Of a DNA stretch of 34,633 bases, positions 10,669 through 29,143 are shown piece by piece. Within the stretch, counting starts at the first letter, position 1. Each line of letters begins with the position of its first letter. Source of the stretch: an uncultured Mycoplasma sp. (lineage in GTDB: Bacteria; Bacillota_I; Bacilli_A; RF39; UBA660); NCBI GenBank assembly GCA_964499645.1, contig CAZCLV010000002.1:1-34633 (forward strand). The letters are read 5' to 3'. A program made the translations under genes and the position numbers. Under the pieces are notes generated by a model, which worked only from the letters and a program-made list of their open reading frames with translations, had not been told where the DNA came from and ran no database searches.

Positions 10669-10678
10669 AATATCACCT

Positions 10679-13812: not shown

Positions 13813-14505
13813 ATGCTCAAAAAACTAAAGATTATTTTGGTGTTTATCTCATTGTCAGTAGCTCTTTGTTTGATGAGCAATACTTATTCAAGATATGTCT
13901 CAGATGCAACTGGTAATGTTAACTTATCTTTTGCAAATTGGCAAATTCTCGTAAATAGCAATGATATAACTAGTAATTCATCTACTGAATTAACTTTTAT
14001 TCCAGTAATTGAACAAAATAGTAATGTTAAATCAGGAGTTGTTGCTCCTTCTTCAAAAGGTTATTTTGATATTCAGATTAATCCATCAAATGTTGATGTT
14101 TCATTTACTTACTCAATTACATTGGGTGTTACAAATGAAAATATGCCTGATTTAATGATTACAAAGTATTCAATAGTTCCGGATGGATATATTGAAGGTA
14201 ATGCCTTAGAAGTAATAGAATTACAAGATAATAATATTACTAACACCTTGAATTATAATAAAAATATAAACAACTTTAGATTTAGTCCATTCACTATAAG
14301 AGTTTATTTTGAATGGTATGAAGGAAGCAATGAAACAATGGACGATGCAGCAGATACACTAGTAGGAGAAACCGCTGTAAGTGACAACACTACATTTACT
14401 ATAAATGCAAATATAAGTTTTGAACAGGTTATAACACAATCTCAAGCACAAACACAAAATAATGAAGAAAATCCTGTAGTTGAAGAAGAAGCCCCAAATG
14501 AATAA
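13813..14505 (+). CDS. Secreted TasA/camelysin-class protein with SipW-type signal motif (small class)
   Basis: Signal peptide ending ...LMSNTYSRYVSDATG (compare TasA/camelysin GT(W/Y)A.F.D). Beta-rich body. Penultimate strand FTINANISFEQ is typical of the family's terminal ...a.Q strand. Acidic tail. Confidence 0.6.
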   Translation: MLKKLKIILVFISLSVALCLMSNTYSRYVSDATGNVNLSFANWQILVNSNDITSNSSTELTFIPVIEQNSNVKSGVVAPSSKGYFDIQINPSNVDVSFTYSITLGVTNENMPDLMITKYSIVPDGYIEGNALEVIELQDNNITNTLNYNKNINNFRFSPFTIRVYFEWYEGSNETMDDAADTLVGETAVSDNTTFTINANISFEQVITQSQAQTQNNEENPVVEEEAPNE

Positions 14506-14597: not shown

Positions 14598-15818
14598 TTA
14601 CTTTATATATTCTATTACTGGAATAACCTTACATAATGAAGTTTTACTATTCCCAAATATTTTAGAATTTACATTGTCAATCTTTTCATATGAAAAGACT
14701 TTTTCATTATTATAACCTGTATTTATCCAATAACATGTATCTGATAATAAATAAGTAAATTTTTCATTAATAAACTTGTAATATCCATTTGAATTAATTG
14801 CTTTAGTAATTTCTGTATTAATTCTATCATTATAATTAAGATTTCCTATAAGTGAATCTGATATATTATCTCTTACTAAAAGTGAATTTGTAATATCTTT
14901 GGAAACTATTTTTAATATATCATTTACTGTTAATGGACGTTTATTTACTTCCCATCCATTTGTTAAGTTTAACATTGTAGAGTTATAATTCTCATAGTTT
15001 GAGGTTAAATAATTAGAAGTTGGATCTGGTAATAAAGTTACTTTTTCATCTTCAAGTTTATTATTTATATCTATAACATAAGTTTTTATGCATGTGTTAC
15101 TTATTTCTTGACATATTTGGTTATTTACAACATCAAATAATATTTCTTCCCCTAAGTTATAATTTGGATCACTGGCAATATCATTTTCAATATATTGTTC
15201 CGCCGTAACACTTATTACTATTTGTAGAGATGATCTAATTTCATAGTTTGAATCTGCAGTTTTTTGTTCATTTTCATGTTTTTTAAAATTATATGCATCA
15301 GAACCCCAAATACTATCACTATTGTTATTGCCTGAATCTAATGGCCATGATATAGATACTTCAAAACTACTTTGATCATTTTTTGCCAAAATATAATTTT
15401 TACTTAAATTCATATTAATATGAAAAGGATAATTGTGTGATAATAGATCTTCAACATATTCAGAAGTAATAGTATTATCATCAATTAAAAAGTTGTTTTC
15501 TTCTTTATCTAAAAGTCTAGCAGATATTATTGAATACTTTAAAGTAGCATCTGAATCTCCTAAGTTCTTAATATTAATTAACTCATGGACTGTTTCCATA
15601 CCTGGATATATATTATCTAATGAAATAACTATATCATTTGATACTTTTTTTCCATTTTTATCTAACTCAATATGCCAAGATTTTACTCCTATTTCAGTAT
15701 TAACATTTGATAATCCTGTATATGCAAACCATGCAAAAGTTACTGATATAAGTGAAACTACTATAAAAATTACAGGCATTATATTAATACGTAAATACTT
15801 TTTATACTTGTTCTTCAT
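14598..15818 (-). CDS. Secreted TasA-class protein (FAWF signal motif) with a C-terminal extension of about 190 aa
   Basis: Signal anchor ...LISVTFAWFAYTG. Core strands VHELINIKNLGDSDATLKY and LQIVISVTAEQ fit the TasA-like sandwich pattern. An extra Cys-containing domain follows. GGTGAT-N4-ATG RBS. Confidence 0.6.
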   Translation of the reverse strand: MKNKYKKYLRINIMPVIFIVVSLISVTFAWFAYTGLSNVNTEIGVKSWHIELDKNGKKVSNDIVISLDNIYPGMETVHELINIKNLGDSDATLKYSIISARLLDKEENNFLIDDNTITSEYVEDLLSHNYPFHINMNLSKNYILAKNDQSSFEVSISWPLDSGNNNSDSIWGSDAYNFKKHENEQKTADSNYEIRSSLQIVISVTAEQYIENDIASDPNYNLGEEILFDVVNNQICQEISNTCIKTYVIDINNKLEDEKVTLLPDPTSNYLTSNYENYNSTMLNLTNGWEVNKRPLTVNDILKIVSKDITNSLLVRDNISDSLIGNLNYNDRINTEITKAINSNGYYKFINEKFTYLLSDTCYWINTGYNNEKVFSYEKIDNVNSKIFGNSKTSLCKVIPVIEYIK

Positions 15819-15849: not shown

Positions 15850-16428
15850 TTATTCTTCTTTTAGTTTATTTCTTCTTTTTTCTTCTCTTTCCAACATAGT
15901 TGAAATAATTTCTGCCCCAATAATTATTACAATTGGAATTACTATAAATAAAAAGAATCCTATTTTTGTACCTACTATTTTATAAACTAATGATAATAAG
16001 AATACTCTATATATTACTTTTCCATATAATTGTTCTTCATATATAGTTGGATCTTCAACTAAATTAGCTAATCCTCTAGCACGAAAAATATATCTACCAT
16101 TTTCATCTTGTTTAATATTTGTAACTTGATGGGTAATAACTTTCCCATTAAAGTCCCCTTGTTCTCCTAAGTAGCTAATTGTATCGCCAACTCTAATTTT
16201 ACTAGCATCAATCTTTTTAGATATTAATACATCCCCTATTGAGTACTTTGGTTCCATTGAACCAGAAACGACTGTAAACATTCTTAAATTAAAGAATGAT
16301 ATTTTATTACCACTAAATCTTTGTAAACATACTGCTAATATAAATACCACCAATAATATAAAGAACAAAGTACTAAATACTTTCTTAATTATACTAAACG
16401 TTTTATGTTCTTTTTTTTCTTTTTCCAT
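15850..16428 (-). CDS. sipW: Signal peptidase I, SipW (archaeal/ER S26B) type
   Basis: N- and C-terminal TM segments. Motifs VVSGSMEPKYSIGDVLI (catalytic Ser), VGDTISY, VITHQV (His). The track's GTG start at 16437 lies inside the AGGTGAT RBS, so ATG 16428 was chosen. Confidence 0.8.
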   Translation of the reverse strand: MEKEKKEHKTFSIIKKVFSTLFFILLVVFILAVCLQRFSGNKISFFNLRMFTVVSGSMEPKYSIGDVLISKKIDASKIRVGDTISYLGEQGDFNGKVITHQVTNIKQDENGRYIFRARGLANLVEDPTIYEEQLYGKVIYRVFLLSLVYKIVGTKIGFFLFIVIPIVIIIGAEIISTMLEREEKRRNKLKEE

Positions 16429-16437
16429 TTTTATCAC

Positions 16438-17571
16438 CTATAAATAATCTTTTGTCCTTTCTAAATAATCATCCATTGCACTTTTAAATTTATTTTTTAC
16501 ATCGTTACTTCCTATCAATGTATTATTCTTTGCTCTTTTTATTTCTGATGTTACCATACTAAGTATTTCTTCTTCTGTTATCTTTATTCCACTATTTAAC
16601 AATAATGAAACTATTTTTTGTAATTGTTGTGTTATCATCATAATTGCATACTTTGACAGTTTTTCTTTCTGCGCTTTTTTGGTAGAGCAAACAGAGTCCA
16701 ATACATAATAGTCCATTAAGAAAGATTGATCTAAAATTTCTTTTAGAGTATCATTTCCTTCTGTTTCTAATCCCTCATTAAAATTATCATTTCCTTTGTT
16801 ATCATATGTTTGTAGGAACGTCCATAATTTCATAGCAACTTGAAAGTTAGGATTTTTTAAAATAACATTAGTTCTTTTTATTGGAGGAGTTACTGGTGCT
16901 ACATGTATTTTATCCAACGCTTTTGCAAGTTCACTTCTTTTCCAACTTGATATATAATCTTTAATTCTTTTAACTCTTTCTTTTAGTGATTCCATCTCAT
17001 TACCAAAATCATCTTTATTACCATCTTTTGGCAACTCACTTGTTCCTATTTTTAATTCTATTGTTACTTTTTCATTATTAGTTACAGTAGAAGACATATA
17101 TTCTAATGATTTGTTGTTCTTTGTCTCAATTGAATCTAGTTGTGCTTCTTTTTGAAATACAAATCTCACTAAATTATTTAATAAAGTATAAAGAAATCTA
17201 TTTTCATAAGTGTTATATGTTTCTTCACTACGTACATCCAATATTTTTGATGGTTGTACTTCTTCTGTAATAGGATCTATTTTTTCTATAAAGTGTGTGT
17301 TTCTAGATAAATTTTTTACACTGGCCACCGTTATTTTTCTGGCTTTTTCTATTTTTACAATGTTCTCTTCACTAATTAATGCCAGTTTAGGTGCTTTAAA
17401 AATGTTATCAAGGTATTGACAGGCATGTTCAATTTCATCTACCCAATCAAGTACCATATTATCACTAGACAGTTCTGATTTATATTGCATTTTAGAATTA
17501 TTTTTTTCCATAAACAAATCACATTTTTGTTTTAATCCTTCATCAACTAATGAATTGATGTTTTTTGCCAT
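16438..17571 (-). CDS. McrC N-terminal-domain-like protein (DUF2357-like), no convincing nuclease motif
   Basis: EETYNTYENRFLYTLLNNLV resembles the E. coli McrC stretch NEDTLANRIIKSTLAILI (recalled). 377 aa, cytoplasmic. Only a weak E-x-K candidate (EKVTIELK), with no matching upstream Asp. Start lies 13 nt after the stop of the McrB-like gene. Confidence 0.45.
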   Translation of the reverse strand: MAKNINSLVDEGLKQKCDLFMEKNNSKMQYKSELSSDNMVLDWVDEIEHACQYLDNIFKAPKLALISEENIVKIEKARKITVASVKNLSRNTHFIEKIDPITEEVQPSKILDVRSEETYNTYENRFLYTLLNNLVRFVFQKEAQLDSIETKNNKSLEYMSSTVTNNEKVTIELKIGTSELPKDGNKDDFGNEMESLKERVKRIKDYISSWKRSELAKALDKIHVAPVTPPIKRTNVILKNPNFQVAMKLWTFLQTYDNKGNDNFNEGLETEGNDTLKEILDQSFLMDYYVLDSVCSTKKAQKEKLSKYAIMMITQQLQKIVSLLLNSGIKITEEEILSMVTSEIKRAKNNTLIGSNDVKNKFKSAMDDYLERTKDYL

Positions 17572-17584
17572 ATATAATCACTTC

Positions 17585-19114
17585 CTATACTGATTTTTTA
17601 ATTCTTTGTAAGTATTCAATACATTCTTTCATAGCGCCTTTTCCAAAATTTGTATCTAAATATGTAATAAATGGATCTATTTCATCACGTATAAATGAAA
17701 TATTTAATTGTTCAAATTTACGGAATATTTTTTTGGCGATAAAGTAATCTATTGCTGCTATTTCATTTCCACCACATGCTACATATACCGGAACAAATGT
17801 CCTCAATTGTTTCATAATACGATTCCCAAATGCTATTCTAAAATGTTTTATAACATAATCATCCATTTCTTTTATTTTATCTAAGTTTGAATCTAAAACA
17901 GGATGTTCTTCAATAGCTGTTTTGAATAATGATTCTAAATAAGTGGAATTAATATCCATTGCTTCTTGTTCTCTACATTTAAATGGATCTATTTTACTAT
18001 TTATATCTATTGGCATTGCACGGTCATATACTTTATCTGTAACCATAAATGTTGAATCATCGTTATTGATTGTACCAATATACCATAAGTTACCTGGTAA
18101 TTTTAATTTTCCACCAATAATTCCTTTGGGATCACTTGCCCAAGAGTTAGTAACAAGTTCGATAATCCATTCATCTCTTGAAGGCATTTCCAGAATTGAT
18201 AGCATTTCTGCAAAGTAATATTCTACACGAGCAATATTCATTTCATCTAGAATTATTGTATGGACATCATCATCGTAATTTGAACGATATAATTCTGCTA
18301 AAACATCTGATTCATTAAACTTTTTAGTAAATTCATTGAAGTATCCTAATAATTCTGTTTTATCTCTCCATGAAGGTTCTACTGATGCTATACATGAGTT
18401 ATTTTTAACAAATTTACCCCAAGCATATGCTAGTGAAGTTTTCCCAGTTCCAGATATACCTTGTAAGATAATTAACTTACCACAAGCAAGAGCCGCAATA
18501 AATGGTCTTAATAATTCAGGATCATAATATAAATGTAATTGCCCTGCTGAATAGCATCTAAAATTATCCATCAATTCTTCTAAAGAGAAGTTATTACCAT
18601 AATTTTTAACTTTATATTCTTCATAATCTTTATCAATCTTTGTAAGTTTAGAAAATCTAATATTTGGATCTTCTTTTGTAGCATCTTCTGGTTTTTCTTC
18701 TGTTGCTTCATCTTGTTCTTCTTCATCAGGTTTTAATCCTAAATGAGATACTTTCATTGCCATAATCTCATTTTTTTCTTTTAGTAACTTTTTTACTTGT
18801 CCATTTAATCCAGCTATTTCATCTAATAGTTCTTCTTGATTTAATTTACCTTTTCTTGATCTTAGGATTCTTTTAATTCCAAAAATTATTAGTAGAATAA
18901 TTAATCCTACAATAATTACTAGTGTTAAAACTGATAATCCAACAAATAACCATTCTGGTCCATTAAAGCTACCTTTATAATTATTAATTATTGATAAATA
19001 GTCATTATAATTAACCATTTGAGTTATTCCTACTCCTATTCCTTTGAAGATTACCATTACTCCATCAAAGAATATAGAAATAAATTCATAAAAAAATCTT
19101 AAAAATGTATTCAT
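17585..19114 (-). CDS. Membrane-anchored McrB-family AAA+ NTPase (GTPase-type)
   Basis: Two N-terminal TM segments, then a coiled coil and acidic linker, then the AAA+ core. Core motifs: Walker A LILQGISGTGKTSLA; HTIILDEMNIARVEYYFAEMLSILE (compare McrB IIDEINRANLSKVFGEVMMLME); NLWYIGTINNDDS..VTDKVYDRA (compare NVYIIGLMNTADRSLAVVDYALRRRF). McrB sequence recalled from memory. Confidence 0.7.
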   Translation of the reverse strand: MNTFLRFFYEFISIFFDGVMVIFKGIGVGITQMVNYNDYLSIINNYKGSFNGPEWLFVGLSVLTLVIIVGLIILLIIFGIKRILRSRKGKLNQEELLDEIAGLNGQVKKLLKEKNEIMAMKVSHLGLKPDEEEQDEATEEKPEDATKEDPNIRFSKLTKIDKDYEEYKVKNYGNNFSLEELMDNFRCYSAGQLHLYYDPELLRPFIAALACGKLIILQGISGTGKTSLAYAWGKFVKNNSCIASVEPSWRDKTELLGYFNEFTKKFNESDVLAELYRSNYDDDVHTIILDEMNIARVEYYFAEMLSILEMPSRDEWIIELVTNSWASDPKGIIGGKLKLPGNLWYIGTINNDDSTFMVTDKVYDRAMPIDINSKIDPFKCREQEAMDINSTYLESLFKTAIEEHPVLDSNLDKIKEMDDYVIKHFRIAFGNRIMKQLRTFVPVYVACGGNEIAAIDYFIAKKIFRKFEQLNISFIRDEIDPFITYLDTNFGKGAMKECIEYLQRIKKSV

Positions 19115-19117: not shown

Positions 19118-21250
19118 CTACTCTCCTCCAAAATCCCTAATTTTATCTGTAATATTTTCACAAATAACTTTATCATATAGTTCTTTTGGTATTTGTGAAA
19201 GGTCATTTTCTTTATTAGTACTATCAACAAATATATAATCTGTTATATATAAATCTTTACGATATTCTTTTGGTACTTCAATATTTGTATTTAATACTAA
19301 TGCAAATTTATATCCAACTTTTTTATATTTTTTTATATTTTGTAAATTTTTTAATAAGTCTTTTAATGTAATTAATATAATAACATTATTTTTTGCATAA
19401 ATATTTTCTATAGTTTTTAATAAACTTTCTAATTTCTTTGTTTTTGTATATATACTTGTTGGAATATATACAAAATATTTTCTATCAAAGTTAGATAAGT
19501 TCATATCATTTATTAATTGAATAGATAATAATGTAGTTAATACTGTCATCTTATCTTCTGCTACTATTCCTTCATTATAGGTTTTATCAATAATGTAATC
19601 ACTGTAGACTTTGCTAAATGAAAGGTTATGTTCTAAATCTACTGCAAACATATCTTTTTTTGGTAACTCAATTAGATTTAAATTAAACATATTTGTTTCT
19701 AATTTTTTTAATAAATAATCTGTCACTTCAAAATAGTGCTTTTGTATTTTCATTATTTCATCAACAATATAATTAACTTTTTCTTTATCCCAATCCAGTT
19801 CTTTTGAATATTTTATTAATTCTTTTTTATAAAATTCAAATTTTGCTTTGGCATCAGTAATTGAGCTGTTTCCTTGTTCAATATTTGCAATTAAAATAAA
19901 TATTTTAGCAAACTTTTCAACTTTATCTTTATACTTTTTATCAGATTCTTTATAATTTTTTACTAATTCATCACTTATTTTTTTAATTATTTTTTCAATT
20001 TTTAAAAATAGTTTTTTTACTACAAATTCATTATTCTTATCATAATAAGTATTATAGTATTTAACACTAATATAAGTATTTTTAAATGTGTCTTTTATTG
20101 AAGATTCATTAACCAATAGCTTTTTATTTTCCATTATAGTATTTATTAGTTCTTCTAACTCATCTTCTTTTATTTGAATTACTTTATCAATAATATTTTT
20201 GCTTTTTTTATTTGATTTGCTATTTTTTAGCATTTCTAAATTAATAGTAGATTCTGCTTCAGTAGAAGTTTCTTCTTGTTCTTCTAATATTTCTACTTCT
20301 TCTATATCTTCTTTATCAACTTTTTTAGGACTTTTAATTTCATTTTTTGCTATTTCAAGAAATGTATCATCTATTTCAGATAAATCAACTGGAATAACTC
20401 TATACATAGATGTTTTTTCTAATTCATCCTCAGTAAGTTCTACTTCATTTTCTTCTATTGAATCTACTGATTTGTTTTCATTATTTAAATTATCAATTAA
20501 TTCATCTTTGGCTTTTTTAATAAATTCATTATCCATATCAACTGGAATTGTCCTATAAATAGCAGTTTTTTCTAGTTCTTCATTTTCTTCTTTAACTGGT
20601 GTTTCTATTTTAACTGCAATAACTTCCTCTTTTTTTTGTTCTTCATCATCAAAGAAGTAATTCTTTTTTTGTTTTTTATTTTTAGTTTTATTTTTTGGAA
20701 ATAATTTATCTACATATTTGTTTATTGATAAAAAATAATTTTTTTGATCTTGCTTTTTTCTAAATAATAAATTAAATATAAATAATGTAACAATAAGTGC
20801 TACTAAAACGCTTGGATTAAATAATGTTCTTCGGAATATGCCAAAGTTATGTAGAACTTTTACAACTTTTCCTATAATTTGGTCTTCTGTTATAGGGGCA
20901 TCTTTTGCATTATTAGCATCACCACGTGTTACATATTTCCCTTTATATACTTCTATAATTCTATGTGTTATATAATCTCCATTTAGTTTATAAGTAACAA
21001 CATCATTTAGTTTAGGGTTTGATGTTGATTTTACTATTATCCAATCACCAGCATTTATGGCATCTGCCATACTACCAGTTTGAACTTCAAATATTGAATA
21101 TCCAAAGAAATCAGCATAATCATTATGAAAAATTCTTATTTGAATACTTGTATATATTGAGATTAATAAAATAATACTAAATATAAATATTAATATATTT
21201 AATAAAAAGTTAATAATTTTTTCTATAATATTCTTTTTATTTGACTTCAT
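19118..21250 (-). CDS. SipW-type signal peptidase fused to a cytoplasmic extension of about 545 aa
   Basis: TM1, then the full S26B set VQTGSMADAINAGDWIIV, VVTY, YITHRI, TRGDANNAKD, then TM2 (LVALIVTLFIFNLLF). After TM2 comes a long K/E-rich region and an alpha/beta C-terminal domain. The track start at 21265 is TTG with no RBS. ATG 21250 has GGAAGGG upstream. Confidence 0.8.
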   Translation of the reverse strand: MKSNKKNIIEKIINFLLNILIFIFSIILLISIYTSIQIRIFHNDYADFFGYSIFEVQTGSMADAINAGDWIIVKSTSNPKLNDVVTYKLNGDYITHRIIEVYKGKYVTRGDANNAKDAPITEDQIIGKVVKVLHNFGIFRRTLFNPSVLVALIVTLFIFNLLFRKKQDQKNYFLSINKYVDKLFPKNKTKNKKQKKNYFFDDEEQKKEEVIAVKIETPVKEENEELEKTAIYRTIPVDMDNEFIKKAKDELIDNLNNENKSVDSIEENEVELTEDELEKTSMYRVIPVDLSEIDDTFLEIAKNEIKSPKKVDKEDIEEVEILEEQEETSTEAESTINLEMLKNSKSNKKSKNIIDKVIQIKEDELEELINTIMENKKLLVNESSIKDTFKNTYISVKYYNTYYDKNNEFVVKKLFLKIEKIIKKISDELVKNYKESDKKYKDKVEKFAKIFILIANIEQGNSSITDAKAKFEFYKKELIKYSKELDWDKEKVNYIVDEIMKIQKHYFEVTDYLLKKLETNMFNLNLIELPKKDMFAVDLEHNLSFSKVYSDYIIDKTYNEGIVAEDKMTVLTTLLSIQLINDMNLSNFDRKYFVYIPTSIYTKTKKLESLLKTIENIYAKNNVIILITLKDLLKNLQNIKKYKKVGYKFALVLNTNIEVPKEYRKDLYITDYIFVDSTNKENDLSQIPKELYDKVICENITDKIRDFGGE

Positions 21251-21287
21251 ATTTACCCTTCCCAATCATATCTTTATTCTATTATTA

Positions 21288-21380: not shown

Positions 21381-21992
21381 CTATTTTAGAAAGTCTTTTT
21401 CGTCTTCTTTTATATTATCTTTTGGTTGATCATTTGAGTCTGCTTTTTGTTTTTTTTCAAATTCTTCTTCATCTTTACTATATTTTATTTCAACTATTAA
21501 CGAATATATTTCATAAATAAAAATCATAAAGCTTGGTACAAGGATCATAAATAAAAAGCCCCATTGTGATTCTACTATTCCTAAATAAGTTCCTATTTTT
21601 TCATATACTTTTGTGGCACTACCTATAATAAATTCTGCATCATAGAATGAACCATTTTCATATGAAAAAGCATTGTCATCAGGAAAAACTTTTCCAACAG
21701 TTCCAAAATCTACTGTTACCTTGCTCTTACTATCTACTTTATAAGCAAACAATTCATCACCAGGATTAATTTCACTTAATTCTTTACTTTTTACTAAAAT
21801 AAGATCTCCTTTTTTATACTTATCAGATGAAACTTCATGTTTTAATATTATTAATGAAGTATCATTTATTTGTGTAACTCCATACTTATTAAAATTCCAT
21901 AGCAATATTGTCATTCCTATTGCAAATGAAAAGAATGCTACTGCTAAAATTCCTATAATAATTTTTTTTATTGCCTTACCTATTTTTTTCAT
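21381..21992 (-). CDS. SipW-like pseudo-peptidase (same topology, catalytic Ser/His motifs absent)
   Basis: N- and C-terminal TM segments. Scaffold motifs KKGDLILVKS and PGDELFAY are retained. The position of SGSM reads HEVSSDKY, and there is no THR(I/V) or GD.N..D motif. Confidence 0.5.
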   Translation of the reverse strand: MKKIGKAIKKIIIGILAVAFFSFAIGMTILLWNFNKYGVTQINDTSLIILKHEVSSDKYKKGDLILVKSKELSEINPGDELFAYKVDSKSKVTVDFGTVGKVFPDDNAFSYENGSFYDAEFIIGSATKVYEKIGTYLGIVESQWGFLFMILVPSFMIFIYEIYSLIVEIKYSKDEEEFEKKQKADSNDQPKDNIKEDEKDFLK

Positions 21993-22061: not shown

Positions 22062-22967
22062 TTAACACCCTGTTGTGTCTGAATATGTAAACTCTGTTAC
22101 ATCATAAACTTCTTCAAAGTTTATTTTATAGAACATGTAACTAATACTTTTTTTAGGATTAATACTTAATGTTATTTCTTTTATATATCCATCTTCATCT
22201 TCTATATATGAATTAAATTGATTACTTTTTGTGTCAATTTTGAATTTACTTGAATCCCAAGCTATTTTTATACATTTTGCAGTTTTATAGGAATTTGATA
22301 TTACTAATTCTCCATATTCTGAATTATCTTTATAGAATAAATTAACTTTTTCTTCTTTTGAATTAATTTTATGAAGCAAAAAGTTTCCACTTAGTGTTTT
22401 ATGATATGGTGCTGTAGTATTTACTTCAATATTTATGGTTAAATCCTTTATTTCATAGTTTTCATCAGTCAAAACAATATCAAAATGTAAATCATTTACT
22501 GATACCTGACTTATATAATCATATTGATTTGTCTCACATTCGTTTTTATCCATTTTAGATGTATCCACACCATCATTAGTATTATTAATACATATTTTTT
22601 TACTTAATAGCACTCCTTCATATTGATTTGTTCCTGTATCAAATAAATTACATGTCGTATGATTTGCAGCTTCTCCATTTATTGTACAAGTAACATTATA
22701 ATTAATATCATAATCACTTATTACAGTAGGATTTAAGCTATTATTTATGCTAAAATTAACACTACCACCATTCCATAAGTTATTAACATTTTTGGTAGTA
22801 CCTATGTTTAACTGTTCACTTGAAAAATAAAAACCTTGAGACTTTAAATAGTAATTCCAAATTGAATTAGATACATATTTTGCATAAGTTATTCCATATC
22901 CTATTACTAGTGCAATAGCAATAACTAATCCTGCTAAAAGTATATATCTTTTAGTCCTTTTTCTCAT
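22062..22967 (-). CDS. Secreted TasA/camelysin-class protein (small-class signal motif), Cys-containing
   Basis: MRKRTKRYILLAGLVIAIALVIGYGITYAKYVSNS is a basic N-region, H-region and SipW-type motif. Start moved from 22997 to ATG 22967, which has a GGTGAT-N3 RBS that overlaps the TAG stop of the upstream gene. Confidence 0.6.
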   Translation of the reverse strand: MRKRTKRYILLAGLVIAIALVIGYGITYAKYVSNSIWNYYLKSQGFYFSSEQLNIGTTKNVNNLWNGGSVNFSINNSLNPTVISDYDINYNVTCTINGEAANHTTCNLFDTGTNQYEGVLLSKKICINNTNDGVDTSKMDKNECETNQYDYISQVSVNDLHFDIVLTDENYEIKDLTINIEVNTTAPYHKTLSGNFLLHKINSKEEKVNLFYKDNSEYGELVISNSYKTAKCIKIAWDSSKFKIDTKSNQFNSYIEDEDGYIKEITLSINPKKSISYMFYKINFEEVYDVTEFTYSDTTGC

Positions 22968-22975
22968 AAAATCAC

Positions 22976-23521
22976 CTATTTTCCTATATTTTGCCAACTC
23001 TTTATTTCTATATTAATGTAATCTACTAAATTAGAATATAAATCACTTGAATATTCACTATCAAATTCAACTTTTAGTTTATAATTATCAAGTTCTTGAT
23101 CAGAGTATCCCATTTCTAAAATTGGAGAATTGCACACTAATTCATTTTCAGAATTGCGTGTATATGTTTCATCACAAGTCATAATTAAATCTTCCTCGTT
23201 TCCATCTATATAATATAGTCTAATTATTAAGGGTACAAAATGATATGTTTTAATCGTCATTTGATATTTTACTGAAACATTACTTACGGTACCAGAAATA
23301 TTATTACTTACAGAAAATGGGTATTCTTTTTGTACCCCTGGCGTTAAATCTACCAACGAGAAATGAAGTTGATCTAACTTCTTTGCATCAAATATGAATT
23401 TGGCAATATTTTGATTTGCAGACATATTGCTAGAACTTGTAAAAAGGGAATATGTTATTCCAAAACCAAATATTAAAAATACTAATACTATTAAAATAAT
23501 TAAAATTTTTTGTTTTTTCAT
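22976..23521 (-). CDS. Secreted TasA/camelysin-class protein (small class, 181 aa)
   Basis: Signal ...FGFGITYSLFTSSS. Strands EYPFSVSNNISGTVSNVSVKYQ and the terminal YINIEIKSWQ fit the TasA-like pattern. RBS GGGAGGA. Confidence 0.6.
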   Translation of the reverse strand: MKKQKILIILIVLVFLIFGFGITYSLFTSSSNMSANQNIAKFIFDAKKLDQLHFSLVDLTPGVQKEYPFSVSNNISGTVSNVSVKYQMTIKTYHFVPLIIRLYYIDGNEEDLIMTCDETYTRNSENELVCNSPILEMGYSDQELDNYKLKVEFDSEYSSDLYSNLVDYINIEIKSWQNIGK

Positions 23522-23535: not shown

Positions 23536-26500
23536 TTATTTTACAATAAATAATTTTTCTAATGTTCCTACTTTTTTTGTATCATTATATAATTCAAAGA
23601 CAAATTTATAACCATTGTTCTCAAAATTTTGCGGTATAAGATTTAAACTAAATGTATTTTCACTTCCATCAAAATTAAGATTTGAAATATAATATAAATT
23701 TGTTGAAGATGCTTCTAAATCATCAGAAATATAATTTTTTAAATCTTCTACTGAATAATTTTGATTAAAAGCAGTTAATTGATCTTTTTTATATAAAGAA
23801 ACTCTCAAACTTGGATTTGTAAAATTGCCATCTGCTACTACTTTAAATTGAATATTTTGTTGTTCAGAACTCTTATCTATTATTCTATTTGTATCATCCA
23901 TGCTTATATTAAAACTATGTTCTGTAGTTAAGTATGTGCTTACTATATTAATTGGAATACTTACTTCTACGTCACTTAAATTATCATAATATATACCATC
24001 ATTTGAAACATAGCTTGATATTTTTAAATAGTATAACCCTTCTTTCAAATTTGCATTGTTCTCTTTCGTAATTATTGTAATTGTTTTAGTAGTATCTTCT
24101 ATTCCATTATTTAAATCTATATGAACTTTATTATCATTTTCTGGATAATATTCATTTGTTCCCACTTTTACAATAATATTTTTTAAATAGTCATCATTTA
24201 CTGTTAAACCATGATTATCTACAATTTTTAATACTATTCCAACTTCTTTATTTTCATAAGTTGTATCATTTATTTTTGAATCATTTAAATATTTGTAATT
24301 TATACTACTTGTTATATTTACATTTGTTGTTGAATTACTATTAAATTGAATATTACCACCTACATAATCAGTAGTAATATTTAAAGAAGCCGATGAACTA
24401 TTACCATTAACGGTAGAGTAAATATTAAATGGTTTTATTGTATTATATAATGTTGGTCTTATATTTATATTATTTGAATTATGTAATTCTAAATACATTA
24501 AAACATTTTCATAATTTTTTGTAATATTTGTATTTGATAAATCTACAACAATAGTAAAACTTTCTATAATTGTTCCATTATCATAATAATTGCTTTCTGT
24601 ATAATTTTTTTTTGTTGATCCTGTACCTTTTTCATTAAATAAAGTAAATGGATAAGTTGCTTTTTTTATACAATTTGTATCTTCAATAGAACAACTATTA
24701 TTAAAATTAAATTCATCATTTTCTGTTATTACTTCATATTCATATACTTTTGAGGTAATTTTATCTATTAATGTTAATTTTGTTCCTAATGGCAATAATA
24801 TATTTGAAACAAAATTATGGGTGTTTCCATTAATTTCATCAGAATTTTTTGAATAACTTACATTTAATGTAATAGTGGATTTATTTGTAATATTATTATT
24901 GGCATTCAAATAATTGTTTTCATTTCTACCTATTGTTAGTTTAGTCTCTGTATATCCATCATAAATAATATAATTAGTATTTACAAATGTAACATAATCA
25001 CTATTATCAATTACTTTTGCATAAATTATATATTTTTGATATTGATTTATAACAAATGGGTCAACATAATCTATCCAATTATTATCTGAAAGTTGATTTA
25101 ATGCATTATTACTTAATACTTCAGTAGTAATATAATATCCCACACTCTTTATTCCTGATAAATTATCTTCCGCTTCAATTGTTATTGTTTGAGTTCTATC
25201 TATGTAAGTATAACCCGGTGTTAAACTTAATGTTTGGTATTCCTTATCATTAACTTTTATTGCTATAGAGGCACCTGTTAAGTCTAAAACTAATATATCA
25301 GTATTTAATATTTTTGCTTCATCATTTATATCATTGGTAGCTTTAACTTTTACATAAATAATATAGGACCCTTCATCTGTTATTTGAACTATATCACTAT
25401 ATGGCTCCCAACTAGTTATTCCTTCAATTTCTAAATTTGTTAGTTTTCTATCACTGATATAATACTCTTTTTCTATTAATGGATTTAATGCATCCATTTC
25501 TTCTATACTAAAAGTAATATTATTTTTAAGTTTAACTGTTTTTAGTTCATCACTTAAATTATTCCATGAATATGTTCCTACATGAATACTAGCAATAGGA
25601 TCATTACTATCATCTATAAATAATATTGGTAATGAATTTTCGTCATAAACCCAAACATTATTTTCATTTATTAATAGATCATTAAAACTAACAAATTCAC
25701 TATATAATAAATTACTAGTTACGTAATTTTTTGTTTTTAAATTATTTATTGTAGTAATATTAAATGATTCATTATAAGTTTCATCATCTATTGGATTTAA
25801 GCTTGTTGAATATGTATTGGTAAATGTCACCGCAGTATTTGCTATTACTCCTATAGCGGTGCTATTATTTATATCAAAAACATTATTTATTGAAATAGAG
25901 CCGGTATTATCATTAATTATTCCAATAAAACCGCCAATATAAGAACTATTTATTGTCCCTGTATTATAGCATTTTGATATTAATATATCATCTTCACTTT
26001 TTTCTATTGTTCCTACCAATCCACCACTTGTATGAGAGCTATTTATATTTCCTGTGTTATAACTTTGGTTTATACTTAATAAGTTAGTTGTTGTTCCTAC
26101 TAAACCTCCGCTTATTTTTTGTCCATATATATTAGCTTTATTTATCACATTTTCTAAAAGCGTATTATTGCTTTTTCCTATTATTCCACCTGTAACAGAA
26201 TAATTATATGAAATGTGATATTTTACATTAGTAAAAGTTACTGATGCATTTTCTGATGTTGAAGATGCTAGAATATCAATATCATCAGCAATAGTAGTTC
26301 CTAAATCAATATCAAAACTACCATTTGTAACTACTACTCCATTTATTTCTATTAAAGTGTTTTCATCGGTAGCATTATTTAAAGTATAAGTTCCTGTTAA
26401 TGAAGTGCTTAAAATCTCACTTCCAATAAATGGAATATTATTAGTTAAATTAACATTGCTTGTAGAACTAATTTCATTTAATTCAATTGGTAAAATATTA

Positions 26501-27228
26501 GCAGTTAATTCAATATTTTTTGTGATATTTGTTTTCCCAATTACATATCCCTTAAATAAAGTATTTTTAATATTAGCATTTGTAGTACTTGATGCAATAC
26601 CTCCAGTAATAATTCCACCATTAATAACTGAATTTTCAACATATAAGTCTGTAATTTCACCTTGTAAAGAAGTGAATAAACCTAGTTCTTCTTTTTCCTC
26701 ATCTGTAATATATAATCCAAGTATTCTATATGATCTTCCATCAAATTTTCCTTTAAATCCATTTAAAGTTTGAAATAAGTTTATTGATCCAACTTCTGGT
26801 TCTGTTTTTAAACTATCTGCATAGTATTTTCCAGTATAATCATCAACAAAATATGTTGTGTCATTTAATAAATAAGTTACTTTATCTGTTGCATCATAAG
26901 AGAATACACCATTATTAATGATGATATCATTTCCTAAAACAAAATAATTGTTTTCATAATTATTTTCTTGGAGTTGTTCAGCAAAATATGCAAGTTCTGC
27001 TCCATTTGATATTACATATGGATTATTACTTGCTCCAGTTCCTCTTTTATAGCCAGTAGCAATACTTCCATCCCAAGGTAAAACTGTATCTAATACATTT
27101 CTGTTTTTATATCTTGATAAAGTCGGTATAGCAATTGGCAAAGCACATAATAAAAACAAAGCTATTATTGAATAAGCTATCTTTTGAAATCTTGATAAAT
27201 TGTTAATAAATTTTCTCATTCTTATCAT
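23536..27228 (-). CDS. Giant (1230 aa) surface protein with GLUG-motif repeats and multiple beta-rich domains
   Basis: N-terminal anchor/signal ...ALPIAIPTLSRYKNRN (small-class motif). NPYVISNGAELAYFAEQ precedes repeated G-G-(L/I)-(V/I)-G motifs (TGGIASS, TGGIIGKS, SGGLVGTT, SGGLVGTI, IGGFIGII). About 800 aa of N/T/S-rich beta sequence follow. No C-terminal LPXTG. Confidence 0.7.
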   Translation of the reverse strand: MIRMRKFINNLSRFQKIAYSIIALFLLCALPIAIPTLSRYKNRNVLDTVLPWDGSIATGYKRGTGASNNPYVISNGAELAYFAEQLQENNYENNYFVLGNDIIINNGVFSYDATDKVTYLLNDTTYFVDDYTGKYYADSLKTEPEVGSINLFQTLNGFKGKFDGRSYRILGLYITDEEKEELGLFTSLQGEITDLYVENSVINGGIITGGIASSTTNANIKNTLFKGYVIGKTNITKNIELTANILPIELNEISSTSNVNLTNNIPFIGSEILSTSLTGTYTLNNATDENTLIEINGVVVTNGSFDIDLGTTIADDIDILASSTSENASVTFTNVKYHISYNYSVTGGIIGKSNNTLLENVINKANIYGQKISGGLVGTTTNLLSINQSYNTGNINSSHTSGGLVGTIEKSEDDILISKCYNTGTINSSYIGGFIGIINDNTGSISINNVFDINNSTAIGVIANTAVTFTNTYSTSLNPIDDETYNESFNITTINNLKTKNYVTSNLLYSEFVSFNDLLINENNVWVYDENSLPILFIDDSNDPIASIHVGTYSWNNLSDELKTVKLKNNITFSIEEMDALNPLIEKEYYISDRKLTNLEIEGITSWEPYSDIVQITDEGSYIIYVKVKATNDINDEAKILNTDILVLDLTGASIAIKVNDKEYQTLSLTPGYTYIDRTQTITIEAEDNLSGIKSVGYYITTEVLSNNALNQLSDNNWIDYVDPFVINQYQKYIIYAKVIDNSDYVTFVNTNYIIYDGYTETKLTIGRNENNYLNANNNITNKSTITLNVSYSKNSDEINGNTHNFVSNILLPLGTKLTLIDKITSKVYEYEVITENDEFNFNNSCSIEDTNCIKKATYPFTLFNEKGTGSTKKNYTESNYYDNGTIIESFTIVVDLSNTNITKNYENVLMYLELHNSNNINIRPTLYNTIKPFNIYSTVNGNSSSASLNITTDYVGGNIQFNSNSTTNVNITSSINYKYLNDSKINDTTYENKEVGIVLKIVDNHGLTVNDDYLKNIIVKVGTNEYYPENDNKVHIDLNNGIEDTTKTITIITKENNANLKEGLYYLKISSYVSNDGIYYDNLSDVEVSIPINIVSTYLTTEHSFNISMDDTNRIIDKSSEQQNIQFKVVADGNFTNPSLRVSLYKKDQLTAFNQNYSVEDLKNYISDDLEASSTNLYYISNLNFDGSENTFSLNLIPQNFENNGYKFVFELYNDTKKVGTLEKLFIVK

Positions 27229-27323: not shown

Positions 27324-27352
27324 CAAGAAAAAACCTCCTTTTTTGGAAGTTA
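27324..27352 (-). terminator. Terminator/attenuator hairpin overlapping the stop of the 542-aa gene
   Basis: Minus strand AACTTCC / GGAGGTT (one G-U pair), loop AAAAAA, followed by TTTTTCTT. Confidence 0.5.
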
Positions 27353-28978
27353 TTCTTTTTTATTTTCTGCTTTATCAATTTTTTCAACTTGACTCATAAA
27401 CCATATTTTTTCAACAGTTGTTGGGCTATCTTCTATTTCTTTAATTCTTAATAATAATTGAATTTTACTTATTAATTCATTTAAATTTTCAGCACTTAAT
27501 GATTCTTCTGTTAAATTAATATTATCTAATCTATATTTATTCATTATAATTCTTGCTAAATTTGAATCTTCAAATATAGCTATTCCATTTAATATTATAT
27601 TAGTAGGATTCATTGCAAATAAATCAAAATTATCACTATACTTAATTAATTCATCATATTTTGTTATTTCAAATACTCTTTTTAATCCTAATTTTTTATA
27701 GTAATCAAAGCTATAATATAAATGTAATACTTCTGACATTGTTAAAGAAGCACTTAATATTGGAGAAATCTTATTTTTTATATATTCTTCATCAAAAGCC
27801 TTATATAGTTCATATATTTCGTTTGCTAAACGTACAGAATCAATTTTTGCTTGTCTTAAATCAGTAGAATTTTTTATTCCAAATAATCCTAGTTTGCCAG
27901 TAAATATTCTTTTATTTAGCTTTTCTAATTTTGCTTCTTTATCTTCAATTTTTTTCTCAACATTGGATAATTCTTTATTTGTTTCTTTTGTATTTCCTGT
28001 TGGAATTAGCTTTTCATATTTTGATTTAAAGTCATTAATTAATGGTAAAAATTCTAAGTAATTACTGTATTCTTCTACATTTGTTTTTAATTTAGCTAAA
28101 CTTTCATAAAATTTATCCATTTGAATTTTATCATCTAAGTCAATATTTTCAATCATAAGACTATTATAAGTTGAAGTTCTTACCTTGCTATCTTGAAAGT
28201 AATTTGTAATATCTATTTCACCTCGTTTAGCAAAATCAATAATATCACAAATATTTTCCTTATCTGCTAAGTTAAGTTTTTTATATACCTCGGCTAATTT
28301 TCTTAAGCAGTCATCATAATTAGATATATTATTTTTAAACATTTCTTCATTTTTTAGTTTTAAAATATAATTATTAAATCTATTTTTATATTTATTAATT
28401 AACTTCCTAAAGTTTAATTCAATATGCCTAATTATTTCAGGATTAACCCAATATATTTTTTCAAACACTTTTGATACATTATCATAATTTTTATTTTTAC
28501 TATTTCTTGCTGCCAAAAATGAAGTCATATATTCATTAACATAACAGGTATAATCAAAATCTGACTCAACAAGGTTTATTCCTGCTGATTCAAATTTGTT
28601 TAAAAATTCATTTATTATGTCATTTAAAGAATTAAAATTAAAATCATAATAATGAAGAATTTGATATATTAAAGTATCAAATCCCATCTTTTCAATATAA
28701 ATATTTGATGGGTTCAATATAAATTTAATATGTTCTAATGCATTAAGTTCTTCATTTAATTTAGCTACATCTTTTTGAGAATTTTTTATATTAAAAGATT
28801 TACTTTTTGTATCTATATATTTTTTTACACTTTTTTGATATTCACTATATTTTCCAATTATTGTATCTATTTTTTCATTATATTTCTTTATATTTGATTT
28901 AGTATTAGTTGGTAAAACTGAAATTAGTGTTTTCTTTGCTTCAATATCCTCATTGATAAAGTCTGAAAAATTAGTCAT
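27350..28978 (-). CDS. Hypothetical cytoplasmic, predominantly helical/coiled-coil protein (542 aa)
   Basis: No TM segment, signal peptide or P-loop. K/E/N-rich heptad-like stretches. ATG lies 1 nt after the stop of the 47-aa ORF, whose last codons supply AAGGAGGAAAA as the RBS. Confidence 0.7.
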   Translation of the reverse strand: MTNFSDFINEDIEAKKTLISVLPTNTKSNIKKYNEKIDTIIGKYSEYQKSVKKYIDTKSKSFNIKNSQKDVAKLNEELNALEHIKFILNPSNIYIEKMGFDTLIYQILHYYDFNFNSLNDIINEFLNKFESAGINLVESDFDYTCYVNEYMTSFLAARNSKNKNYDNVSKVFEKIYWVNPEIIRHIELNFRKLINKYKNRFNNYILKLKNEEMFKNNISNYDDCLRKLAEVYKKLNLADKENICDIIDFAKRGEIDITNYFQDSKVRTSTYNSLMIENIDLDDKIQMDKFYESLAKLKTNVEEYSNYLEFLPLINDFKSKYEKLIPTGNTKETNKELSNVEKKIEDKEAKLEKLNKRIFTGKLGLFGIKNSTDLRQAKIDSVRLANEIYELYKAFDEEYIKNKISPILSASLTMSEVLHLYYSFDYYKKLGLKRVFEITKYDELIKYSDNFDLFAMNPTNIILNGIAIFEDSNLARIIMNKYRLDNINLTEESLSAENLNELISKIQLLLRIKEIEDSPTTVEKIWFMSQVEKIDKAENKKE

Positions 28979-28979
28979 A

Positions 28980-29123
28980 TTAATTTTCCTCCTTTTCTTC
29001 TTGAGATATTTTCTTTTCTTCTAAAAATTCAAGAAAGCCCACAATATCTTCATAAACTTTAATTAATTCTTTTAAACTAAGAAGAGACATGTCAAAATTT
29101 ACTTTATTTTCTTCTTTTTTCAT
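28980..29123 (-). CDS. Small acidic protein, 47 aa (not in the ORF track), translationally coupled to the 542-aa gene
   Basis: My translation: MKKEENKVNFDMSLLSLKELIKVYEDIVGFLEFLEEKKISQEEKEEN. RBS AAAGGTGAT-N3-ATG. Starts 20 nt after the stop of the upstream subunit gene. Confidence 0.55.
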   Translation of the reverse strand: MKKEENKVNFDMSLLSLKELIKVYEDIVGFLEFLEEKKISQEEKEEN

Positions 29124-29143
29124 GAAATCACCTTTTTTTCTTT

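What the first reader, a model, noticed from the sequence alone, without database searches (positions are those of the whole stretch)
16438..19114. Membrane-tethered McrB-type AAA+ NTPase with an apparently nuclease-less McrC-like partner, embedded between two signal peptidase genes
Seen, in the 509-aa ORF:
- The McrB-family core is present: Walker A GISGTGKT, LDEMNIARVEYYFAEMLSILE, and IGTINNDDS...DKVYDRA.
- In place of a DNA-binding N-domain it has two TM segments, a coiled coil and an acidic linker.

Seen, in the 377-aa ORF downstream:
- It carries the McrC N-domain signature (TYNTYENRFLYTLL, compare McrC DTLANRIIKSTL).
- I find no credible PD-(D/E)xK motif. The only candidate is a weak EKVTIELK.

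Seen, in the spacing:
- The upstream SipW-fusion stops at TAG 19118-19120 and the NTPase starts at ATG 19114.
- The NTPase stops at 17585 and its partner starts at ATG 17571.
- The partner's TAG overlaps the RBS of the next SipW gene.

Established knowledge: McrB hexamers are activated by McrC inserting into the ring, and the family is known almost exclusively from restriction and defence.

Inference: either the McrBC motor has been exapted as the energy source or quality-control engine of a fibre secretion/assembly pathway, or it is an envelope-coupled defence/abortive module wired to a phage-receptor-like surface structure. I am not aware of either having been described.
Basis: partly seen in the sequence, partly recalled or inferred. 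Interest (0 to 1): 0.92.

Follow-up and report, generated by a model that had tools for sequence, protein, structure and literature searches.

The report
Pilus-linked membrane McrBC-like GTPase pair
Two tightly coupled genes encode a membrane-anchored relative of the McrB restriction GTPase and a partner that keeps only the activator half of McrC and has no nuclease. They form the most conserved core of a large surface-fibre gene cluster in uncultured low-GC gut Firmicutes, an arrangement already named CoCoPALM in a 2024 genomic census but never studied experimentally.

Summary
Window 17585-19114 (-) encodes a 509-aa protein with a hydrophobic N-terminus, a heptad coiled coil, an acidic linker and a McrB-type AAA+ core. 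The core matches E. coli McrB (hhalign probability 96.7%). Walker A, Walker B, an NxD sensor motif and Arg365 are all invariant.

Window 16438-17571 (-) encodes a 377-aa protein with the McrC N-terminal domain (Pfam DUF2357, E 2e-11). Its remainder is predicted all-helical and has no conserved D...(D/E)xK.

The pairing is not accidental:
- In 81 of 81 related loci (about 80 species, Bacilli and Clostridia) the two genes are adjacent.
- 68 of 71 long loci also carry SipW-type signal peptidases.
- 69 of 71 carry homologues of the secreted proteins.
- The GTPase is the most conserved gene of the cluster.

The claim that this is undescribed is wrong. Bell et al. [quoted passage not shown]

The pair is most likely the cytoplasmic GTP-driven module of a SipW-dependent fibre assembly machine. 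A defence role is less likely but not excluded.

It is a new member of a named, uncharacterised class.

The parts
17585..19114 (-). 509-aa membrane-tethered McrB-like (NxD-clade) AAA+ GTPase
   Evidence: ORF. McrB match. More than 8000 homologues of about 509 aa at 67-76% identity.
18875..19108 (-). N-terminal hydrophobic region (aa 3-80): nearly invariant helix 3-33, strong TM 56-80, then KRILRSRKGK
   Evidence: Hydropathy, invariant residues, AF2 helices with pLDDT about 70-76.
18743..18847 (-). Coiled-coil segment (aa 90-124), followed by the acidic linker (aa 125-150)
   Evidence: Invariant heptad positions L96, I100, L103, V107 and L110. Predicted helix 94-124.
17909..18550 (-). AAA+ core alignable with E. 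coli McrB (aa 189-402), including Walker A 219-227, Walker B 286-293, NxD(D) 350-353 and R365
16438..17571 (-). 377-aa McrC-N-terminal-domain (DUF2357) partner without a nuclease
17107..17415 (-). DUF2357 match (aa 53-155), including the 100%-conserved YENR 122-125
16939..17208 (-). Predicted stalk (aa 122-211): two long helices (122-151, 186-211) carrying a beta-hairpin (154-174) that holds the 'EKVTIELK' segment
   Evidence: AF2 model (pLDDT 50-93 in this stretch).
20756..21265 (-). SipW-type signal peptidase domain (aa 1-170) of the 715-aa fusion protein
   Evidence: NCBIfam TIGR02228 at 65 bits against a cut-off of 51.85. Pfam Peptidase_S24.
19121..20215 (-). 'X domain': cytoplasmic C-terminal ~365 aa of the SipW fusion. 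In other lineages it is a separate ~326-360-aa gene directly upstream of the GTPase.
   Evidence: No Pfam or PDB match.
15850..16437 (-). SipW-type signal peptidase (192-195 aa), translationally coupled to the partner gene
   Evidence: TIGR02228 at 81.5 bits against a cut-off of 51.85. Junction. Directly downstream of the partner in 62 of 75 loci.
21381..21992 (-). 203-aa SipW-like protein lacking the His-bearing segment (probable pseudo-peptidase)
   Evidence: Homologues in most related loci.
22062..23521 (-). Two small secreted proteins (181 aa and 311 aa) with an h-region followed by a T-Y-[SA]|[LK]-[FY] cleavage-type motif
23536..27228 (-). 1230-aa secreted giant protein of the cluster
   Evidence: Syntenic in close relatives.
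14598..15818 (-). 406-aa secreted protein (motif VTFAWFAY), last gene of the minus-strand operon
   Evidence: Terminator-like hairpin at 14504-14524.
13813..14505 (+). 230-aa secreted protein (motif SNTYSRYV), convergent with the operon
27350..33748 (-). Upstream extension of the locus: a 542-aa protein without a signal peptide, and the paralogues of 361, 523 and 529 aa with the ATYAWF motif

Best explanation
The two genes are the McrB-like GTPase and the McrC-N-domain activator of a CoCoPALM system. This is a McrBC-derived module that has lost both DNA recognition and the nuclease. It is built into a SipW-dependent surface-fibre (pilus-like) locus of uncultured low-GC Bacillota.

Proposed working:
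1. The GTPase assembles as a McrB-type ring on the cytoplasmic face of the membrane. It is held there by its N-terminal hydrophobic region and coiled coil.
2. The DUF2357 partner docks into the ring through its helical stalk, as McrC does, and triggers GTP hydrolysis.
3. The resulting conformational work is passed on to membrane partners instead of driving DNA cleavage. The partners are the SipW paralogues, the pseudo-SipW and the cytoplasmic X domain, which is fused to SipW here and free elsewhere.
4. This powers or gates the ordered processing and polymerisation of at least eight secreted subunits whose signal peptides end in a T-Y-[AS] cleavage motif.

Shown here: domain identities, intact catalytic motifs, absence of a nuclease, gene coupling, conserved synteny and relative conservation.

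Inferred: ring formation, activation by the partner, GTP use, the physical link to SipW and X, and the role in fibre assembly.
For: - McrB-type core: PDB profile hit to 6hz4 at E 2.4e-6; hhalign 96.7%.
- The family motif G-T-x-N-x-D-[DE]-S-T equals the NxD variant followed by D/E that defines the CoCoNuT/CoCoPALM branch (Bell et al. 2024).
- Partner: DUF2357. The AF2 model is helical with a stalk hairpin and no 4-stranded sheet. No conserved acidic triad in 76 sequences.
- Synteny: adjacent pair in 81 of 81 loci; SipW directly downstream in 62 of 75; a SipW-like gene in 68 of 71 long loci; secreted-subunit homologues in 69 of 71.
- Flanking genes differ between genomes (SMC, FtsW and ComEC here; ABC-F, amidase and integrase in L001). 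The cluster therefore moves or persists as a unit.
- The GTPase is the most conserved gene of the cluster: median 67/59/53% identity in three divergence tiers, against 23-56% for every other gene. This is the pattern of a motor among fast-evolving exposed subunits.
- Identity falls from Bacilli (58-76%) to Clostridia (52-55%), in step with taxonomy.
- The X domain is fused to SipW here but is a separate gene next to the GTPase elsewhere. This is a Rosetta-stone-type link between peptidase and GTPase module.
- No nuclease, HEPN or other effector family was found in any cluster protein.
- Other TM-bearing relatives sit beside giant surface proteins (L083, L087).
Against: - There is no experimental or structural evidence for any step.
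- The AF2 model of the GTPase failed (pLDDT 45). The partner model is only moderate (pLDDT 66) and finds nothing in the PDB.
- Known TasA/SipW and archaeal TasA-like fibres assemble by donor-strand exchange, and the papers consulted describe no dedicated NTPase (PMC9674648, listed but not read; PMC9245690, read, does not contain the word 'ATPase'). An energy requirement is therefore not obvious.
- The secreted proteins are not demonstrably TasA-like.
- The closest non-membrane relatives are predicted conflict systems (L089; PADLOC PDC-M26A at 6e-37).
- Some membrane-tethered relatives occur as bare pairs without SipW (L084, L088).
Confidence: 0.6

Rival explanations
1. Envelope-coupled defence or abortive-infection module. 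The McrBC-derived GTPase senses a signal linked to the fibre, for example phage adsorption or DNA entry at a pilus used as receptor. It then kills or arrests the cell through its membrane segment or by blocking fibre export.
For: The family's nearest branches are predicted conflict systems. The TM-less relative P0280 sits with VWA, Ser/Thr kinase, PP2C and an SF1 helicase. PADLOC candidate PDC-M26A matches at 6e-37. Bell et al. place CoCoPALM among CoCoNuT-like type IV restriction relatives.
Against: - No nuclease, HEPN or other effector in the cluster.
- The GTPase is far more conserved than typical fast-evolving defence genes and more than all its neighbours.
- Gene order is fixed across about 80 species, with identity tracking taxonomy.
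- Neighbours outside the cluster are housekeeping genes here.
Confidence: 0.15
2. Membrane protein quality control. The ring acts as an extractor or checkpoint that removes uncleaved or jammed precursor signal anchors, or regulates SipW access. It does not drive polymerisation.
For: The evidence is the same as for the main explanation: membrane tether, nearly invariant N-terminal intramembrane or juxtamembrane peptide, coupling to two active SipWs and one pseudo-SipW, and many substrates with one shared cleavage motif.
Against: In solved McrBC complexes the central pore of the McrB ring is occupied by McrC (established knowledge from the complexes under 6hz4 and 6ut6). Substrate threading like Cdc48 or FtsH is therefore not expected. 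No protease or degradation partner is encoded.
Confidence: 0.18
3. An ordinary McrBC restriction variant that landed by chance between two signal-peptidase genes.
For: The core is McrB-type, and the partner has the McrC N-terminal domain.
Against: 81 of 81 loci from different species keep the same neighbours. There is no DNA-binding domain and no nuclease. Start and stop signals are interlocked with both SipW genes.
Confidence: 0.01
4. A cell-division or envelope-growth factor, suggested by the FtsB-like TM and coiled coil, that merely shares an operon with fibre genes.
For: Bell et al. call the N-terminal domain FtsB-homologous. In this window the cluster lies next to smc and near ftsW.
Against: - FtsB homology is not reproducible here (Pfam; hhalign probability 0.4%).
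- The positive patch after the TM puts the coiled coil in the cytoplasm, opposite to FtsB.
- The smc/ftsW neighbourhood is not conserved, whereas the SipW/fibre neighbourhood is.
Confidence: 0.04

Closest known systems
[quoted passage not shown] 2024, eLife 13:RP94800)
   Same: NxD-type McrB GTPase with an N-terminal TM and coiled coil; a McrC homologue reduced to DUF2357 plus helical or coiled-coil parts; genomic association with signal-peptidase-family genes; found in Bacillota.
   Different: Nothing that conflicts. The published description is two sentences. FtsB homology could not be reproduced here. This work adds the X domain, the pseudo-SipW, the set of at least eight substrates with a shared T-Y-[AS] motif, the conservation ranking and the distribution in about 600 species genomes.
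E. coli McrBC type IV restriction enzyme (PDB 6hz4, 6ut6)
   Same: AAA+ core with Walker A/B, a sensor Asn in an Nx(x)D loop and a conserved Arg after it. The partner shares the McrC N-terminal motif (xxxNRxxxxTL) and the adjacent gene order B then C.
   Different: No N-terminal DNA-binding domain; it is replaced by membrane and coiled-coil segments. The motif is NxD(D) rather than NTAD. The partner has no PD-(D/E)xK domain and no detectable sequence similarity to E. coli McrC by hhalign. It is not in a restriction or defence neighbourhood.
CoCoNuT systems (CnuB/CnuC)
   Same: Same NxD branch of McrB GTPases (alignment; representative hits of 250-350 bits). The partners often lack an active nuclease.
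   Different: CoCoNuT GTPases have long soluble coiled coils and no TM. They are always accompanied by HEPN or other nucleases, helicases and kinases (Bell et al.; L089). None of these is present here.
tapA-sipW-tasA fibre operon of Bacillus subtilis and archaeal bundling pili
   Same: A dedicated ER/archaeal-type signal peptidase (SipW) encoded among secreted subunits whose signal peptides end in a shared aromatic-rich cleavage motif.
   Different: Neither the papers consulted nor my own knowledge of these systems indicates a dedicated NTPase. Here there are two or three SipW paralogues, at least eight substrates including a 1230-aa protein, and a GTPase module. Subunit homology to TasA was not detected by sequence.
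Type IV pilus / archaellum assembly ATPases (PilB, FlaI)
   Same: Functional analogy only: a hexameric cytoplasmic NTPase at the membrane, encoded with a dedicated signal or prepilin peptidase and several fibre subunits, and much more conserved than the subunits.
   Different: Unrelated fold family (secretion ATPase versus McrB-type AAA+). The signal peptides here are class I (cleaved after the h-region), not class III. There is no PilC-like platform protein.

Membership tests
McrB-like AAA+ GTPases | AAA+ core with Walker A and Walker B alignable to McrB | tested here: met
   Profile against PDB: 6hz4/6ut6/7vsr at E 2-5e-6 over residues 187-402. hhalign against E. coli McrB: probability 96.7%, E 3.5e-10. 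Note that Pfam AAA_5 does not reach E 0.1 for this sequence.
McrB-like AAA+ GTPases | Nx(x)D signature loop after the sensor strand, followed by a conserved Arg | tested here: met
   G-T-I-N350-N-D352-D353-S-T and D-K-V-Y-D-R365-A are invariant. They align with MNTADRS and ALRRR of E. coli McrB and with GTANxD[DE]ST of relatives.
McrB-like AAA+ GTPases | Hexamer formation and McrC-stimulated GTP hydrolysis | not testable with these tools
   Needs biochemistry or complex prediction. The monomer AF2 model failed.
McrC (canonical) | N-terminal DUF2357 / McrB-activating domain | tested here: met
   Pfam PF09823 at E 2.3e-11, 43.9 bits against a cut-off of 23.3. All 120 listed homologues carry PF09823 only.
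McrC (canonical) | C-terminal PD-(D/E)xK endonuclease | tested here: not met
   No nuclease family in Pfam. AF2 predicts residues 186-376 as all-helical. No conserved D...(D/E)xK in 76 sequences, and no column conserved at 90% or more after residue 250. Foldseek finds no nuclease.
CoCoPALM (Bell et al. 2024) | GTPase belongs to the NxD branch (NxD usually followed by D/E) | tested here: met
   N350-x-D352-D353. Relatives have NxD followed by D or E. Definition quoted.
CoCoPALM (Bell et al. 2024) | GTPase fused to an FtsB-homologous TM and coiled-coil domain | tested here: inconclusive
   The architecture is present: TM 62-80, heptad coiled coil 90-124. Homology to FtsB was not detected: no DivIC/FtsB Pfam hit, and hhalign against E. 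coli FtsB gives probability 0.4%.
CoCoPALM (Bell et al. 2024) | Association with signal-peptidase-family genes | tested here: met
   Two SipW-type genes flank the pair, both above the TIGR02228 cut-off. 62 of 75 loci have SipW directly downstream and 68 of 71 have one in the locus.
CoCoPALM (Bell et al. 2024) | Coiled coil also on the McrC homologue | tested here: inconclusive
   Long paired helices 122-151 and 186-211 in the AF2 model. Clostridial orthologues carry tails of 350-450 aa rich in K, E and A. No dedicated coiled-coil predictor was run.
CoCoNuT | Accompanying HEPN or other nuclease and a long soluble coiled coil on the GTPase | tested here: not met
   No nuclease or HEPN family in any cluster protein. 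The GTPase is membrane-anchored with a short coiled coil.
TasA/SipW fibre systems | Dedicated SipW-type (ER/archaeal) signal peptidase I | tested here: met
   TIGR02228 at 81.5 and 65.0 bits (cut-off 51.85). The Bacillus SipW model scores 70.9 and 49.4 bits, below its equivalog cut-off of 190.
TasA/SipW fibre systems | Subunits of the TasA/camelysin (Peptidase_M73) family | tested here: not met
   No Pfam, NCBIfam or PDB-sequence hit for single proteins or for a 25-member profile. 1062 homologues, of which the 120 listed carry no Pfam annotation.

The most novel reading that the evidence does not exclude
The McrB-like GTPase ring with its nuclease-less McrC-like activator is the cytoplasmic motor of a distinct, so far unstudied class of Gram-positive surface-fibre machinery. 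In this class SipW-cleaved subunits are polymerised under NTP control through a SipW / pseudo-SipW / X-domain membrane platform. A restriction-enzyme motor would thus have been converted from acting on DNA to building a protein fibre.
Probability: 0.35. Interest if true: 0.85.

Novelty: new member of a known kind. Interest (0 to 1): 0.5.

Why it matters
McrBC is the textbook GTP-dependent restriction motor. A branch that has shed DNA binding and cleavage and become the most conserved part of a surface-fibre locus would be a clear case of a defence machine recruited for cell-surface construction.

It would also add an NTP-dependent route to the known ways Gram-positive bacteria build fibres (sortase pili, type IV pili, TasA-type donor-strand fibres).

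The carriers are abundant, mostly uncultured gut and rumen Bacillota with small genomes, so the fibre may be central to how they attach to hosts or partners.

The class is named in the literature but unexplored. The locus map given here offers concrete targets for the first experiments: the GTPase, its partner, the X domain, two SipWs, the pseudo-SipW and at least eight substrates with a common cleavage motif.

Tried and rejected
- AF2 of the GTPase with a 20-sequence alignment gave pLDDT 45, unusable, so no fold search was run on it.
- Foldseek of the partner model against the PDB: best E 2.0, no McrC and no nuclease.
- phmmer or profile of the partner against PDB sequences: nothing.
- hhalign of the partner profile against E. 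coli McrC: probability 0.3%. The McrC link therefore rests on Pfam DUF2357 and the literature, not on direct similarity to E. coli McrC.
- The X domain looked EAL-like by eye. This was not supported by Pfam on 20 members, a PDB profile search or hhalign against an EAL-like ORF of L075. Rejected.
- FtsB homology of the N-terminus: not reproduced.
- TasA/camelysin or SipW-cognate signal models for the secreted proteins: no hits. A resemblance of 'APGSxGYFDI' and the C-terminal 'ISFEQ' to TasA motifs is from memory only.
- Supplementary files of Bell et al. held as text contain no CoCoPALM entries. No later paper uses the term.
- The promoter scan is uninformative in this AT-rich DNA: 133 sites found against 153 expected.
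Full report
**1. The observation**

The window is about 24% G+C. On the minus strand, the ORF listing gives these genes:
- a 715-aa ORF at 19118-21265;
- a 509-aa ORF at 17585-19114;
- a 377-aa ORF at 16438-17571;
- a 195-aa ORF at 15850-16437.

- The 715-aa gene ends ...GGAGGAGAG TAG, and the next ATG follows 3 nt later.
- The 509-aa gene's TAG is followed after 13 nt by the ATG of the 377-aa gene.
- That gene's TAG sits inside TAGGTGAT, 6 nt before the ATG at 16428 of the next gene.

The four genes are thus translationally interlocked. A terminator-like hairpin at 14504-14524 closes the operon after the next gene downstream.

**2. The 509-aa protein**

- Pfam alone does not recognise it. There is only a sub-threshold AAA_18 hit and no AAA_5 hit.
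- PADLOC's candidate model PDC-M26A matches at 6e-37.
- A profile built from 20 homologues (alignment A1) hits the AAA+ domain of E. coli McrB in the PDB (6hz4, 6ut6, 7vsr) at E 2-5e-6 over residues 187-402.
- hhalign against E. coli McrB, taken from NC_000913, gives probability 96.7%, E 3.5e-10.
- All catalytic elements are invariant in A1: Walker A G219-S227, Walker B L289-D-E-M-N293, N350-N-D-D353 and R365.
- Aligned with divergent relatives and with E. coli McrB, the family motif is G-T-x-N-x-D-[DE]-S-T. This is the 'NxD, usually followed by E or a second D' variant that Bell et al. 2024 use to define the CoCoNuT/CoCoPALM branch of McrB GTPases.

The N-terminus has these features:
- one strongly hydrophobic segment (62-80);
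- a weaker but almost invariant first helix, MNTFLRFFYEFISIFFDG;
- a basic patch, KRILRSRKGK;
- about five heptads with invariant a/d positions (L96, I100, L103, V107, L110);
- an acidic linker.

The basic patch places the coiled coil and the GTPase in the cytoplasm. Whether residues 1-55 form a hairpin or lie outside the cell is open. The AF2 model was too poor to use (pLDDT 45).

**3. The 377-aa partner**

- Pfam DUF2357 matches residues 53-155 (E 2.3e-11, above the gathering score). Bell et al. equate DUF2357 with the McrC N-terminal, McrB-activating domain.
- All 120 listed homologues are about 377 aa and carry only PF09823.
- In 76 orthologues from Bacilli and Clostridia, Y122-E-N-R125 is 100% conserved. 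A second block (P230...N235...K239-N240...W250) is also conserved.
- No column after residue 250 reaches 90% conservation. Beyond residue 130 the only conserved charges are [DE]167, [KR]199 and [KR]239.
- The AF2 model (pLDDT 66) shows two long helices (122-151, 186-211) carrying a beta-hairpin (154-174), and an all-helical C-terminal half. This leaves no room for the alpha-beta sandwich of a PD-(D/E)xK nuclease.
- Foldseek against the PDB returns nothing (best E 2). Sequence and profile searches of the PDB return nothing. hhalign against E. coli McrC finds nothing.

The partner is therefore a McrC-N-domain protein without a nuclease. Its link to McrC rests on the Pfam family and the shared xxxNRxxxxTL motif.

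**4. Surroundings**

- Both flanking peptidases pass NCBIfam's archaeal/ER-type signal peptidase I model. The scores are 81.5 and 65.0 bits against a cut-off of 51.85, and the Bacillus SipW model is the next best hit.
- A third relative (203 aa, 21381-21992) keeps the fold and the aligned Ser but lacks the His-bearing segment.
- Eight proteins have a basic N-terminus, an h-region and then T-Y-[SA] followed by an aromatic-rich stretch. They are the 181-, 311-, 1230-, 406-, 230-, 361-, 523- and 529-aa proteins, with examples GITYS|LF, GITYA|KY, SNTYS|RY, VTFA|WF and AATYA|WF. This fits a signal-peptidase-I site (small residues at -1 and -3).
- None of these proteins matches TasA/camelysin or any other family by sequence.
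- No cluster protein matches a nuclease, HEPN or toxin family.

**5. Is the association real?**

- The GTPase has more than 8000 database homologues of about 509 aa at 67-76% identity.
- I called ORFs in 81 loci (80 from that collection plus one) and searched them with the window's proteins. The results were:
  - the DUF2357 partner is adjacent in 81 of 81 loci;
  - a SipW gene follows directly in 62 of 75 loci that have enough flank;
  - 68 of 71 loci of at least 12 kb contain a SipW-like gene;
  - 69 of 71 contain a homologue of the secreted proteins.
- Genes outside the cluster differ between genomes.
- Median identity to the window in three divergence tiers is 67/59/53% for the GTPase. For the other genes it is 47/35/34% for the partner, 56/38/37% for SipW, and 23-54% for the remaining genes.
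- The C-terminal ~365 residues of the 715-aa SipW fusion occur as a separate gene of 326-360 aa directly upstream of the GTPase in other lineages. I call this the X domain. It has no known family.
- In Clostridia the partner carries a tail of 350-450 aa rich in K, E and A.

**6. The wider family**

- A profile search of 1.8 billion representatives finds 8731 clusters at E of 1e-3 or better, and 874 at 1e-30 or better.
- Among the best 150, one group has N-terminal TM segments and the other is longer and TM-less.
- A TM-less member sits with VWA, Ser/Thr kinase, PP2C and an SF1 helicase, which is a CoCoNuT-like conflict context.
- Distant TM-bearing members occur in two settings. Some are bare pairs. 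Others are two GTPases flanking one partner, next to GH3-Fn3, LRR and membrane or surface proteins of more than 1000 aa, with no SipW.
- Every one of these distant GTPases is followed by a DUF2357-like gene.

**7. What is known**

Bell et al. 2024 (eLife) state the following:
[quoted passage not shown] - The authors name them CoCoPALM and defer them to a forthcoming publication.

No later paper in the library uses the name or links DUF2357 or McrB to SipW.

The window's pair meets the testable CoCoPALM criteria. The exception is FtsB homology, which I could not reproduce. The orientation also differs, since FtsB's coiled coil is periplasmic. TasA-type and archaeal TasA-like fibres show no dedicated NTPase in the papers consulted (only PMC9245690 was read in full text).

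**8. Interpretation**

I rate 'GTP-driven module of SipW-dependent fibre biogenesis' at about 0.6. This covers motor or checkpoint roles, and the quality-control variant overlaps with it. I rate a defence role at about 0.15 and chance insertion at about 0.01.

Function remains inferred throughout. The decisive work is complex prediction, topology mapping, GTPase assays and genetics with fibre and phage read-outs.

Noticed in passing
window 21381-21992 (-): The 203-aa SipW-like protein has two TM segments and the aligned Ser, but the His-bearing 'ITHR' segment is deleted. It is probably a catalytically dead signal-peptidase homologue. It is conserved in most related loci.
   Followed up: partly
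window 19121-20215 (-); L030:4604-5581, L061:2136-3116 and others: The cytoplasmic C-terminal ~365 aa of the 715-aa SipW fusion is a stand-alone gene directly upstream of the GTPase in other lineages. It has no Pfam or PDB match. An EAL-like appearance was not supported.
   Followed up: yes
window 29144-33748 (-): Three paralogous proteins (361, 523 and 529 aa; the 523- and 529-aa proteins are 54% identical) carry the same 'ATYAWF' motif after their h-region. The fibre locus therefore extends at least 14 kb upstream of the finding and covers about 20 kb in all.
   Followed up: partly
window 27332-27351 and 14504-14524: A terminator-like hairpin lies immediately after the 542-aa gene, inside the cluster. 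A bidirectional hairpin lies between the convergent 230-aa and 406-aa genes and marks the operon end.
   Followed up: no
L083:4907-9452 and L087:4692-9482: In a distant high-GC lineage, two TM-anchored McrB-like GTPases flank a single ~600-aa DUF2357 partner. They sit next to GH3-Fn3, LRR and membrane or surface proteins of more than 1000 aa, without SipW. This is a different membrane-linked McrBC variant.
   Followed up: partly
L075:11569-13743 (Ruminococcus sp. CAG:488) and L073-L081: Clostridial orthologues of the partner are 713-825 aa because of a long K/E/A-rich repeat tail (KEKERIAKEKA...). In L075 the gene is followed by a 2391-aa secreted protein.
   Followed up: partly
window 17585-19114, residues 1-18: The first 18 residues of the GTPase (MNTFLRFFYEFISIFFDG) are almost invariant although only weakly hydrophobic. 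This suggests a specific interaction surface rather than a simple anchor.
   Followed up: no
window 4874-13615: The neighbours below the cluster are housekeeping genes: ComEC-like competence protein (4874-6973), FtsW/RodA family (7661-8791), peptide deformylase (9178-9729) and SMC (10679-13615). This neighbourhood is not conserved in L001.
   Followed up: no
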